Shown: piece by piece, positions 36,001 through 39,000 of the stretch | Layout of the letters: each line of letters opens with the position of its first letter | Position numbering within the stretch: the stretch's first letter is position 1 | Origin: Escherichia coli | GTDB lineage: Bacteria > Pseudomonadota > Gammaproteobacteria > Enterobacterales > Enterobacteriaceae | Length of the DNA: 64,000 nt | Assembly (NCBI RefSeq): GCF_009931435.1 | Contig: NZ_CP043414.1 | Reading direction: 5' to 3' (one strand) | Program-made: the position numbers

Positions 36001-39000
36001 TTTCTTTGTATTGATGGCAAAAACAACCAGACTATCAGCCCGCAAATAACAAATGCGATGGCAGCGGTGAGATACATCACTTTAAAACTAAATCCCATTG
36101 CCAGCTCATAAGCGAGCGGTGGCCCGATAACCCAGGCAAGCGAGATCTGAGCACGTAAAAATGTACTGAACATGACCGTCTCACGGCCTGTTCTGTCGGC
36201 GTGTTCACGGGCGAGGGCGAACATTTGCGGGTTTGCAGTGGAAGCAAAACTACTCAGAAGTACGCCCGTAGAGAGGAGAATGAAGTAGTTGCGATTCCAC
36301 GCAAAAAGAGTGCAGGCCAACACTCCAAATAAGCAACATAGCAGGATCAGTAATTTACGGTCGCCTTGTTTATCGGAGTGCCTTGCCAGAAATTGACTGA
36401 CCAGAATTCCCATAATAGCGCTACCGGTGAAGAAAAAACCTACCATTATAGGACGGGCTTTCAGTTCATCTGCGAGGAATATACTTAGGGTGGGAGTCTG
36501 GAGAGCGCCCGCAATACCAGTCAGAAAGGCGACAAGTAAAAATGCCGCGGCAGTGAGATCAAGTATTTTTGATGGAGTGGTAGCCATTTTTTGCATTCTT
36601 CTGAATCACCGGGCGACAAAATATAACTGAGTTACAAATAAGTACCAGTCGAATGAGTATTATATTAAGAATTTTTGAGTATCGCTGATACAACCAGAAA
36701 GCAATGCTAGCGCAATATTATAGGGCCAGCAATTGAGATTATTAGCAAAAGCATGTTAAGAATTAATCACCGAATTTATATATTAATTATAGTAAGGCAA
36801 TGAGCTATTTTTGATAGTAAAAATAAAACAAGTTTAATTGATATATTAAATGAAAAAATTAATCTTGATGGCAGTCTGATTATTGGTGAAGTTTATAGGT
36901 CAGTTTTTTTCGCCAGCGGTTAAAGGAATAGAATCGTCGTATAAAAAAAGGGTGTTTTGGGGCGTGTAAAACAACATCTTCACCTTAATGGCGATACAGT
37001 TGGCTGAGAGTCAGCAGGGGGGCAAATCACCTGCAAATAAACACGGCGCATGCTGGCGCGAATATCGCGGATGCGTTCGAGGACAGAAGAACCGACAGGC
37101 GGATTCTTCAGTCGCTCATCGTCCATCACAAAACCTTTGATCAGGTATTCCTGAAGTTGATTAAATATTGAGCAGTAGAAAATATCTGGATTGACTGTAT
37201 TACAAGGGGTTGGAGAACGTCAGTAGAAGCAAATTGGCGGAAGATCACAGGAGTCGAATATGGGTGTTAATGTTTTGATTTTAAATGATTAATCTGTGTT
37301 GGATAAATGAGTAACCCCCATAAGAACCCCCAAATAACTTTGTGTAAGGGAATGAAGCTAAAATACACAATCGAATCAATTCTTAGAGCTTTATTATGAA
37401 GGTAACACTCCCGGATAGTGTTTCGCAATAATATCATTCAGCCTGTCAACCAGTTCTGGTTTCCTGAACCTGATGTGCGCGGAGCCTTTCTTAAAGTATC
37501 TGATGCTGAACATCTCATCTTCATAGCATTCTTTACCCTGAACAGACCGGATGTGATCATCCAGACGAATAGTGATGTTTTCCCGGTTGTCGGGGATCGG
37601 TTTGCCGCTGAACAGATGTAGCATTCTTTCCAGGTCGACGAGTCGGTCAGTCTGTTGCCCGGTGATAAGATGAAACCCCCACCGGTCCCACCTCACCAGG
37701 TTGTTGACGATAATTTTACTGCCAAATTTGCAGGGGCAATTGGTTTTGTAATTCCAGCTCAGTCCCCTGAAGACGTTGATCACCCCTCGCTCAAACACCT
37801 CATCCTTATTCTGGTGTAGTTGTTCAAATGTGATCAGAATGTTCGCTTCACTGATTTCCGGAAAATTATCGTACTCCAGTGACCGGTACCATGTATCACG
37901 GGCCTGTGCATCCATTAAGGAAAGCATCCCTGAACGTTGCATCAGGTCACGCCAGATTTCGCGATCGAGATTGCGTGTGATGGCTTTCATTGCGGTTTCC
38001 GGTTTCTCCATCAGCCAGCAGCCGCAGCGAAAATCCTGTTTCATGGCCCAGCCCGGGGTGGCTTTACCGCCAATACTTTCTGTCATTGCTGATATTTCAG
38101 CCAGTTGCCGGATAAGTGTGTCGATTTGCAGCAGTGTACTCTTTCGTACAGCCAGAATGTGGCGGATACTGGTTGAGCAGATAACGTCCGTATGCCCGGT
38201 GACCACTTCCGGACGGGAGATTGTGATGTCTGACATTATCGGTTTCCCTTTTGGTTTATAAACGAAAACGCCAGCCCTGTTCAGGCTGACGTCAGTGGAA
38301 TGAAGTATGGTGAGTGATATTTACCGGTTCTGGTGCAGAAGCTGCAGATGACGAAGAGTACGGACATCCTCCCGGGCCTGTTCGATACAGGGCAACAGTG
38401 CTGCCGAATCCGTTTTATCCTCATCGTTGTCAAAGATAATTCCCGATTCGCAGTCGATATTGTCCTGCAGCCACGCAATGAGGATATCCAGCGCTGTTTC
38501 AGTGGTTAATGGCATCACGCTCTGTATCACTGTATTGTCTTCCGGCAACTGATGAGGGCTGGCAGAAGTCGCCGGTGTTTCGGTAGCGTCACGTTCATCC
38601 ACCACGCGGAGTGAATAACCGTTTTCAGCGACCTTGTTAATCAGTTCAATGAGATTAACACCATCGACGTCAACGACAATTCGCCCCATGTTCAGCGCCT
38701 GCACGTTAACGCTGTCGGCTTCCAGCGTCAGGGTCAGTTTCATCGTTTCGCCTCCGGATGCTTACCCAGGGTGATATTGTTCACCGTTCTGTAGTTGTGG
38801 CTGGTCATCAGGCCTGTTGCCCGGCGAGCCCGGAGAATATCAATGCTGTTGATTAACTGCGACGAGGCTCCTGCGCTGAATCCCGGCTGGTCGGTACGTA
38901 CCAGCGCGTATTTCTCAACGAGAAAGTTCACCGCATCACACAGTGAAATGCCCGCTTCAATATGCTGCTCAATCACACGTTCATCAGCGAACGGTGTGTC

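What the first reader, a model, noticed from the sequence alone, without database searches (positions are those of the whole stretch)
37235..37258. selC 3'-end remnant marks one edge of a selC-associated island; intact selC and integrase not in window
Only 24 nt of tRNA-Sec are present, oriented as expected for the distal direct repeat of an element integrated at selC. Everything from 37259 to the window end is island cargo; the intact selC and probably an integrase should lie beyond 64000. Region 36597-37234 looks like the native selC-downstream flank.
Basis: partly seen in the sequence, partly recalled or inferred. Interest (0 to 1): 0.45.

Follow-up and report, generated by a model that had tools for sequence, protein, structure and literature searches.

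The report
Right-end scar of selC genomic island
The 24 bases are an exact copy of the end of the selenocysteine tRNA gene, left as the far-end repeat of a roughly 40 kb mobile island inserted at that gene; this kind of junction in E. coli is well documented, so the finding is correct but ordinary.

Summary
Observation confirmed. Window 37235-37258 (minus strand) is an exact copy of the last 24 nt of E. coli selC (nt 72-95, from the T-loop TTCGA to CCA). It is the only copy in the window, none is expected by chance, and no tRNA gene lies anywhere in the window.

Interpretation supported. Bases 36597-37234 are collinear with the K-12 selC-setC spacer. Contigs with a 100% identical backbone carry an intact selC, and their identity to the window stops exactly at 37258. 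Against E. coli 98193, identity rises from 94.9% in the backbone to 99.96% in the island, and the change falls at the repeat.

In 98193 and FORC 064 the same island ends with a P4-type tyrosine integrase next to an intact tRNA-Sec and yicJ. In 98193 that end lies about 16.7 kb past the position matching the window end. The window's own genome could not be extended.

The 24-bp selC repeat and the neighbouring TTTGGGGGT...GGGGGT motif are already published (Saile 2018). The same junction occurs in 651 of 5,426 complete E. coli genomes.

In-window cargo is a CbtA/CbeA toxin-antitoxin and antirestriction module, a dGTPase, a thymidylate-synthase-like cassette and a type I restriction system. Already known; low interest.

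The parts
37235..37258 (-). attR core: a 24-nt direct repeat identical to selC nt 72-95 (T-loop TTCGA through CCA).
   Evidence: Exact match to K-12 and 98193 selC. Unique in the window, with 0 expected by chance. The same 24-mer occurs at the island/setC junction of 98193 and once more as the end of its intact selC.
37259..37393 (-). Non-coding island terminus between the repeat and the stop codon of the DUF4942 gene.
   Evidence: 100% identical to 98193. Conserved next to the core in L007, L010, L023-L030 and L034.
37314..37334 (-). TTTGGGGGTTCTTATGGGGGT, a tandem GGGGGT motif and candidate arm-type integrase binding site (inferred).
   Evidence: It is the only TTTGGGGGT in the window. The one partner, TTTGGGGGTACTTTAGGGGGT, lies 111 nt past selC, upstream of int, in 98193. 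The same pair is reported for GIselC17584/1 (PMC6174562). The integrase has an Arm-DNA-bind_3 domain.
36597..37234 (-). Native selC-setC intergenic flank.
   Evidence: Collinear with K-12 and 98193 over its full length, with two 1-nt indels. 100% identical to the empty-site contig L005.
36995..37156 (-). rhuM-like pseudogene fragment (K-12 yicT) inside the native flank; coordinates are approximate.
   Evidence: RefSeq annotates it in 98193 and 2013C-4282. K-12 carries the yicT pseudogene at the same place. A weak PF13310 Virulence_RhuM hit falls on the 49-aa ORF.
35412..36596 (-). setC, the first core gene downstream of selC.
   Evidence: ORF; annotated as setC in relatives.
37259..64000 (.). 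The part of the selC-integrated island inside the window (26.7 kb; about 43 kb in total in 98193).
   Evidence: 99.96% identical to 98193 over 37259-58500 and 99.15% over 57516-63999, against 94.9% for the adjacent backbone. Absent from K-12, 2013C-4282 and L005.
37394..44742 (-). Conserved CP4-type end module: DUF4942, DUF5983/DUF957, CbtA toxin (38740-39117), CbeA/YeeU antitoxin, DUF987, RadC, antirestriction protein, DUF932, DUF905, a hypothetical protein, a WYL regulator and a YeeP-like GTPase.
   Evidence: ORFs. RefSeq annotation of the same DNA in 98193. Pfam labels. WYL hit in PADLOC.
49335..49568 (+). AlpA-family small DNA-binding protein, a candidate excision or directionality regulator (inferred).
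   Evidence: Annotated as AlpA family. PF05930 Phage_AlpA. Weak TIGR01764 excisionase-domain hit, below the curated cut-off.
53140..54393 (-). Defence-type dGTPase.
   Evidence: PADLOC dGTPase, E = 1.4e-109.
55852..58858 (.). Thymidylate-synthase-like gene, an aGPT-Pplase3/ADDT gene, and a divergent XRE-peptidase M78 regulator.
   Evidence: NCBIfam thymidylate-synthase hits, all below their cut-offs. PF00303, PF18746/PF18724 and PF06114. PADLOC PD-Lambda-2_B, E = 3e-30, on the XRE-M78 protein only.
61010..64000 (+). Type I restriction enzyme R subunit (HsdR), cut off by the window end.
   Evidence: PADLOC REase_I, E = 3.9e-240. The reading frame is open from 61010 to the window end. hsdM and hsdS follow it in relatives.

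Best explanation
The 24-mer is the attR core of a genomic island inserted into the 3' end of selC by a P4-family tyrosine integrase. The island is about 40 kb and carries mainly defence and toxin-antitoxin genes.

Proposed mechanism: the circular element carried an attP holding a copy of the last 24 nt of selC, from the T-loop to CCA. Recombination with the chromosomal selC rebuilt a full-length tRNA-Sec gene next to the integrase (attL, beyond the window end). It left a duplicate of the 24 nt between the other island end and the native selC-setC spacer (attR, window 37235-37258).

Shown here: the exact duplicate, the base-precise boundary, empty sites in identical and related backbones, the jump in sequence identity at the repeat, and the integrase plus intact selC at the far end of the same island in complete genomes.

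Inferred: that this integrase made the junction, that the GGGGGT pairs are its arm sites, that AlpA controls excision, and that the element can still excise.
For: - The 24/24 match to the selC 3' end is unique, with none expected by chance.
- The flank is collinear with the K-12 selC-setC spacer.
- L005 is 100% identical to window 25412-37258, carries an intact selC, and stops matching exactly at 37258. K-12 and 2013C-4282 break at the same base.
- Against 98193, identity is 94.9% over 33056-37234 and 99.96% over 37259-58500 (8 mismatches in 21.2 kb), so the change falls at the repeat.
- 98193 and FORC 064 have the order DUF4942 end ... hsdRMS ... integrase WP_001218901.1, tRNA-Sec, yicJ.
- The integrase has Arm-DNA-bind_3, Phage_int_M and Phage_integrase domains.
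- The island of 98193 is bounded by exactly two copies of the 24-mer, with none inside it.
- 651 of 5,426 complete E. coli genomes hold the same setC-repeat-DUF4942 junction.
- Saile et al. 2018 report a 24-bp direct repeat for selC insertions and the same flanking repeat pair (PMC6174562).
Against: - Sequence beyond 64000 in the window's own genome was not available. The closest complete genomes match the backbone at only 97-98%, and an exact scan of species-representative genomes with the window's last 60 nt found nothing.
- The island is a mosaic. Relatives carry an internal integrase fragment and IS elements, and identity to 98193 drops to 99.15% over the last 6.5 kb of the window. Its present content may not come from a single integration.
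- No excised (attP) form was found in viral contigs.
Confidence: 0.93

Rival explanations
1. The repeat is genuine, but the island is a composite built by tandem integration at selC or by later homologous exchange between related islands. The 24-mer would then mark the end of only the oldest or most distal module, not of one element that arrived whole.
For: - Relatives carry a degenerate second integrase fragment about 7 kb in from selC, plus IS1, IS3, ISEcp1 or Tn10 insertions.
- Divergence from 98193 changes inside the island, from 99.96% to 99.15%.
- Six complete genomes have an attP-like junction. In 14EC001 a DUF4942-ended island is followed by a one-mismatch core copy and then the LEE, which proves tandem arrays form at selC.
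- The DUF4942-CbtA end module recurs at several sites per genome (median 3 places per genome).
Against: No internal copy of the core, even with 7 mismatches, exists in the window or in the 98193 island. The whole 26.7 kb is collinear in at least six genomes. This reading refines the main explanation rather than contradicting it.
Confidence: 0.3
2. The 24-mer is what remains of selC after a deletion or rearrangement destroyed the gene, so the genome has no intact selC at this locus.
For: The window holds no tRNA at all, and the far end could not be read in the source genome.
Against: The DNA abutting the 24-mer is the conserved island terminus found in hundreds of genomes that do have an intact selC at the other end. 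The break falls at the T-loop TTCGA in every case, as site-specific recombination predicts and a random deletion does not.
Confidence: 0.03
3. The match is a chance resemblance to the tRNA.
For: None.
Against: The match is 24/24 and exact, 0 of 100 shuffles gave a match even with 3 mismatches allowed, and it sits exactly where selC lies in the conserved gene order.
Confidence: 0.005

Closest known systems
GIselC17584/1 and other selC insertions of LEE-negative STEC (Saile et al. 2018, PMC6174562)
   Same: They have the same 24-bp direct repeat taken from the selC 3' end. They share the imperfect repeat pair TTTGGGGGTACTTTAGGGGGT / TTTGGGGGTTCTTATGGGGGT near the two ends. They are also mosaic islands with KlcA antirestriction, a type IV toxin-antitoxin system and a phosphoethanolamine transferase; the last of these is present in the 98193 and FORC 064 copies, beyond the window.
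   Different: The middle cargo here is a dGTPase, a thymidylate-synthase-like/aGPT-Pplase3 cassette and a type I restriction system.
PAI I536, PAI tia, SHI-2, LEE and the CFT073 selC island: classical selC-associated islands with CP4/P4-like integrases
   Same: They use the same insertion site and the same layout of selC, int, cargo, repeat. The review PMC7545054 lists them. CFT073 carries the same DUF4942 end module next to the core.
   Different: Their cargo is virulence genes such as haemolysin, Tia, aerobactin or the LEE type III secretion system, and none of these is in the window. In CFT073-type strains the remnant has lost 4 nt (TTCGACTCCTGTGATC-GCCA), which leaves a 16-nt perfect repeat matching the 16-nt repeat TTCGACTCCTGTGATC quoted by Saile et al.. 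Linking this to the 16-bp repeat described for PAI I536 is from my own knowledge.
GI-pheV of E. coli (PMC11537424)
   Same: It works on the same principle: an intP4 integrase next to the tRNA gene and an attR that is a 19-23 bp remnant of the tRNA 3' end. Island content correlates with integrase type, and the remnant decays in some lineages.
   Different: It uses a different tRNA gene and a different core sequence.
P4-like satellite prophage at selC (locus L006)
   Same: It occupies the same site in a backbone 99.99% identical to the window.
   Different: It carries Psu, Ogr/Delta, AlpA and a primase, and it leaves a 21-nt repeat rather than a 24-nt one. The window's island has none of those satellite genes.

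Membership tests
tRNA-gene-integrated genomic island with a P4-type tyrosine integrase (selC island) | The distal boundary is a direct repeat identical to the 3' end of the target tRNA gene. | tested here: met
   24/24 identity to selC nt 72-95 at 37235-37258.
tRNA-gene-integrated genomic island with a P4-type tyrosine integrase (selC island) | An intact tRNA gene at the proximal boundary. | not testable with these tools
   It lies outside the window and the source genome was not retrievable. The feature is met in the 99.7-99.96% identical islands of 98193 and FORC 064.
tRNA-gene-integrated genomic island with a P4-type tyrosine integrase (selC island) | A tyrosine integrase gene directly downstream of the intact tRNA gene. 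| not testable with these tools
   Not in the window. In relatives, WP_001218901.1 (394 aa) starts 300 nt past selC and has Arm-DNA-bind_3, Phage_int_M and Phage_integrase domains.
tRNA-gene-integrated genomic island with a P4-type tyrosine integrase (selC island) | A presence/absence polymorphism with a base-precise empty site. | tested here: met
   L005, L008, L009, K-12 and 2013C-4282 carry selC directly followed by the same flank, and their identity to the window ends at 37258.
tRNA-gene-integrated genomic island with a P4-type tyrosine integrase (selC island) | An evolutionary history distinct from the flanking core genome. | tested here: met
   94.9% identity in the backbone against 99.96% in the island, versus 98193, with the change at the repeat.
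Locus of enterocyte effacement (LEE) / SHI-2 / PAI I536 | Signature cargo: the LEE type III secretion genes, the iuc aerobactin genes, or hly/pap-type adhesin and toxin genes. | tested here: not met
   None appears among the island ORFs or in the RefSeq annotation of the identical DNA. The eip type III secretion genes in the window lie outside the island, beyond setC-yicL-nlpA-yicS.
Integrative conjugative element | A relaxase, a coupling protein and type IV secretion genes. | tested here: not met
   None is annotated anywhere in the 43-kb island of 98193, nor in the window part.
Functional prophage or P4-like satellite | Capsid, tail and terminase genes, or the satellite set of primase, Psu and Delta. 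| tested here: not met
   Absent from the window island and from the rest of it in relatives. The satellite set is present in the different element L006 at the same site.

The most novel reading that the evidence does not exclude
The island is still mobile and has recently moved between distant E. coli lineages: 8 differences in 21 kb, while the adjoining core DNA differs by 5%. It has no conjugation or packaging genes, so it would depend on an unidentified helper, or on transduction followed by integrase-mediated insertion at selC. It would thereby spread a package of dGTPase, type I restriction and a thymidylate-synthase-like/aGPT-Pplase3 DNA-modification cassette.
Probability: 0.3. Interest if true: 0.3.

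Novelty: already known. Interest (0 to 1): 0.1.

Why it matters
The finding fixes the island boundary to the base. That lets an annotator split this window cleanly into core genome (up to 37258) and accessory island (from 37259). It also marks the dGTPase, restriction and DNA-modification genes as horizontally acquired cargo. It adds no new biology: the 24-bp selC repeat, the integrase family and this island type are already published, and the junction occurs in about 12% of complete E. coli genomes.

Tried and rejected
- ARAGORN and Rfam on the whole window found nothing. This is expected for a 24-nt fragment and rules out an intact selC in the window.
- I tried to identify and extend the source genome. 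RefSeq complete E. coli genomes match the backbone at no better than 97.3-98.6%. An exact scan of species-representative genomes with the window's last 60 nt gave no match.
- Exact-protein look-ups found contigs with a 100% identical backbone: L005 with an empty site, and the draft contig L010 with the same junction. None reaches the far end of the island. The XRE-M78 protein and the 140-aa DUF5983-type protein (38321-38743) are too widespread to single out the source genome.
- I searched for an excised circular form. The reconstructed attP junction gave no exact hit in viral contigs. In complete E. coli genomes it matched only tandem-array junctions at 86-90% identity.
- I looked for an internal decayed core copy that would prove tandem accretion in this island and found none with up to 7 mismatches.
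- PADLOC gave no hits for the thymidylate-synthase-like gene, the aGPT-Pplase3 gene, the 376-aa hypothetical protein, or the two low-GC genes at 1677-4706.
- One literature search returned mostly irrelevant papers.

Full report
**1. Observation**

Window 37235-37258 reads TGGCGGAAGATCACAGGAGTCGAA. Its reverse complement, TTCGACTCCTGTGATCTTCCGCCA, is identical to positions 72-95 of the 95-nt selC gene of E. coli K-12 and of strain 98193. That stretch runs from the T-loop TTCGA to the terminal CCA. On the island side only 4 of the next 12 bases match selC.

The 24-mer is unique in the window even with 3 mismatches allowed, and 100 dinucleotide-preserving shuffles gave no match. A scan allowing 7 mismatches finds no second copy. 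ARAGORN finds no tRNA and Rfam finds no family in the 64 kb.

**2. The flank**

The minus strand from 37234 down to 36597 aligns base for base with the K-12 selC-setC spacer and with that of 98193. There are scattered substitutions and two 1-nt indels. The alignment runs into setC at 35412-36596.

The spacer contains the rhuM-like fragment that RefSeq annotates in 98193 and 2013C-4282, and that K-12 lists as the pseudogene yicT. A weak Virulence_RhuM Pfam hit falls on the 49-aa ORF there. The flank is therefore native in the sense that all these E. coli share it. It also holds an older scar: from my own knowledge, rhuM lies next to selC in Salmonella SPI-3.

**3. The boundary is exact and the site is polymorphic**

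An exact-protein look-up with the window's SetC returned contigs of the same lineage.

| Locus | Identity to window | State of the selC site |
|---|---|---|
| L005 (GCA_030511265.1) | 100% over 25412-37258 | Intact selC followed by yicJ; match ends exactly at 37258 |
| L008, L009 | 99.98% and 99.4% over 25412-37258 | Same empty site |
| L010 (draft contig) | 100% over 25412-38763 | Same junction as the window |
| L006 | 99.99% over 25412-37255 | A different element, a P4-like satellite (Psu, Ogr/Delta, AlpA, primase), with a 21-nt repeat |

K-12 and 2013C-4282, the complete genome with the closest backbone, also have empty sites. Their alignments to the window end at 37258.

**4. The island has a separate history**

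Against E. coli 98193 the backbone 33056-37234 is 94.9% identical (194 mismatches in 4.2 kb). The island is 100% identical over 37259-39000 and 99.96% identical over 37259-58500 (8 mismatches in 21.2 kb). The change therefore falls at the repeat.

Six complete genomes hold window 39001-64000 at 99.7% identity with full coverage. The setC-repeat-DUF4942 junction itself is found in 651 of 5,426 complete E. coli genomes.

**5. What lies beyond the window**

In 98193 the window end corresponds to record position about 3,728,018, inside hsdR. The island then continues with:
- hsdM, hsdS, an AAA ATPase and a hypothetical gene
- an ISEcp1-blaCTX-M-15 insertion
- a degenerate integrase fragment
- an outer-membrane protein and a phosphoethanolamine transferase
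- IS1 and a TPR protein
- a 394-aa integrase
- an intact tRNA-Sec at 3,711,276-3,711,370, followed by yicJ

This puts selC about 16.7 kb past the window end and makes the island about 43 kb in that strain.

FORC 064 has the same order, with a Tn10-type tet(B) insertion in place of the ISEcp1 one. It ends with the same integrase protein (WP_001218901.1), tRNA-Sec and yicJ. S1-KEN-07-A matches as far as I fetched it.

The integrase has Arm-DNA-bind_3, Phage_int_M and Phage_integrase domains. It also matches the NCBIfam integrase-domain model PRK09692, though below that model's cut-off. The 98193 island is bounded by exactly two copies of the 24-mer, with none inside it.

I could not read the window's own genome beyond 64000. 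It is absent from RefSeq complete E. coli genomes (best backbone identity 97.3-98.6%). An exact scan of species-representative genomes with the window's last 60 nt found nothing.

**6. Anatomy of the ends**

On the island side, 55-76 nt from the core, lies TTTGGGGGTTCTTATGGGGGT (window 37314-37334, minus strand). It is the only TTTGGGGGT in the window. Its only partner in the 98193 island, TTTGGGGGTACTTTAGGGGGT, sits 111 nt past selC, upstream of int, in the same orientation.

The integrase carries an arm-binding domain, so I read these motifs as arm-type sites. This is an inference.

**7. Mechanism**

The mechanism is standard P4-type integration. An attP carrying the last 24 nt of selC recombines with the chromosomal gene. 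attL regenerates a complete selC next to int, and attR is the 24-nt duplicate found here.

- Shown: the duplicate, the exact boundary, empty sites, the step in identity, and the int-selC end in near-identical islands.
- Inferred: which enzyme acted, the arm sites, a role for the AlpA-family gene (49335-49568) in excision, and present-day mobility.

A reconstructed attP junction has no exact match in viral contigs. In complete E. coli genomes it matches only six tandem-array junctions at 86-90% identity. In 14EC001, for example, a DUF4942-ended island is followed by a one-mismatch core copy and then the LEE. This shows that elements can stack at selC. It keeps open the reading that the present island is a composite, as do the internal integrase fragment, the IS elements and the drop to 99.15% identity over the last 6.5 kb of the window.

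**8. Cargo in the window**

- A CP4-type end module at 37394-44742: DUF4942, DUF5983/DUF957, CbtA/CbeA toxin-antitoxin, DUF987, RadC, antirestriction protein, DUF932, DUF905, a WYL regulator and a YeeP-like GTPase.
- YagK/YfjJ-type, AlpA, ProQ-like and H-NS-like genes.
- A dGTPase (PADLOC E = 1.4e-109).
- A frameshifted IS3.
- A thymidylate-synthase-like gene with an aGPT-Pplase3/ADDT gene and an XRE-M78 regulator.
- A MazG-like gene.
- A type I restriction R subunit cut by the window end.

The island carries no LEE, aerobactin, conjugation or phage structural genes.

**9. Comparison with what is known**

Saile et al. 2018 state that insertions at selC end with a 24-bp direct repeat that is part of the K-12 tRNA gene. 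For GIselC17584/1 they list both the core and the two GGGGGT-containing repeats seen here (PMC6174562).

The review PMC7545054 lists LEE, SHI-2, PAI I536, PAI tia and LAA at selC. The pheV study PMC11537424 describes the same architecture, with 19-23 bp tRNA remnants and intP4 integrases.

In other strains the remnant decays. L024 and L027 have lost 1 nt. CFT073, L026 and L030 have lost 4 nt, which leaves a 16-nt perfect repeat. That fits the 16-nt repeat TTCGACTCCTGTGATC quoted in the literature.

**10. Verdict**

The only unverified item is the far end in the source genome itself. This is an already known kind of junction, and the island itself is already present in sequenced genomes. Interest is low.

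Noticed in passing
window 16041-33000: The eip/eilA/iatC locus lies between nepI and yicS, outside the selC island. It comprises a SycD-like chaperone, a SseC/IpaB-like translocator and an IpaD/SipD-like needle-tip protein, the HilA-family regulator EilA and the inverse autotransporter IatC. iatC is split into two ORFs here (16041-20453 and 20450-25717; 9,677 nt in total), whereas 2013C-4282 has an intact 9,678-nt gene. This implies a 1-nt frameshift or an assembly error in the Big_1 repeat region.
   Followed up: partly
window 1677-4706: Two low-GC (0.33-0.39) genes of 428 and 517 aa are inserted between ilvN and uhpA. 2013C-4282 also has them, annotated as hypothetical, but K-12-like 98193 does not. 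Neither hits PADLOC.
   Followed up: partly
window 13760-14426: A small RelE/ParE-type toxin plus HTH antitoxin pair lies between yicN and nepI. It is annotated in 2013C-4282 and absent from 98193.
   Followed up: no
window 55852-59181: A thymidylate-synthase-like gene and a gene with aGPT-Pplase3/ADDT domains (thymine hypermodification families) sit beside a divergent XRE-peptidase M78 gene and a 108-aa ORF. Only the XRE-M78 protein hits PADLOC (PD-Lambda-2_B, E = 3e-30). The exact XRE-M78 protein is indexed in 6,095 blocks of the contig collection, and all ten loci fetched carry the three-gene set.
   Followed up: partly
L006 1-9341 (GCA_035607835.1): In a backbone 99.99% identical to the window, the selC site is occupied by a P4-like satellite (Psu, Ogr/Delta, AlpA, primase) together with a reverse-transcriptase gene. 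It leaves a 21-nt selC repeat instead of 24 nt.
   Followed up: partly
L023, L026, L030 at 11486; L024, L027 at 11486: The attR remnant decays in other strains. CFT073-type strains have a 4-nt deletion (TTCGACTCCTGTGATC-GCCA) followed by a different flank with a truncated setC. L024 and L027 have a 1-nt deletion.
   Followed up: partly
L034 5071-5094 (E. coli 14EC001): A tandem array at selC: a CP4-type island ending in DUF4942 is followed by a one-mismatch core copy (TTCGACTCCTGTGATCCTCCGCCA) and then the LEE, starting with espF. Six complete genomes show such attP-like junctions.
   Followed up: partly
window 36995-37156: A rhuM-like pseudogene fragment (K-12 yicT) lies in the 'native' selC-setC spacer of all E. 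coli examined. It is probably the scar of a much older selC-associated element; from my own knowledge, rhuM lies beside selC in Salmonella SPI-3.
   Followed up: partly
L002 29086-31870 (98193) and L031 8782-17714 (FORC 064): The otherwise identical island has picked up resistance insertions in relatives: ISEcp1-blaCTX-M-15 in 98193 and S1-KEN-07-A, and a Tn10-type tet(B) unit flanked by ISVsa5 in FORC 064. Both lie in the part beyond the window end.
   Followed up: no
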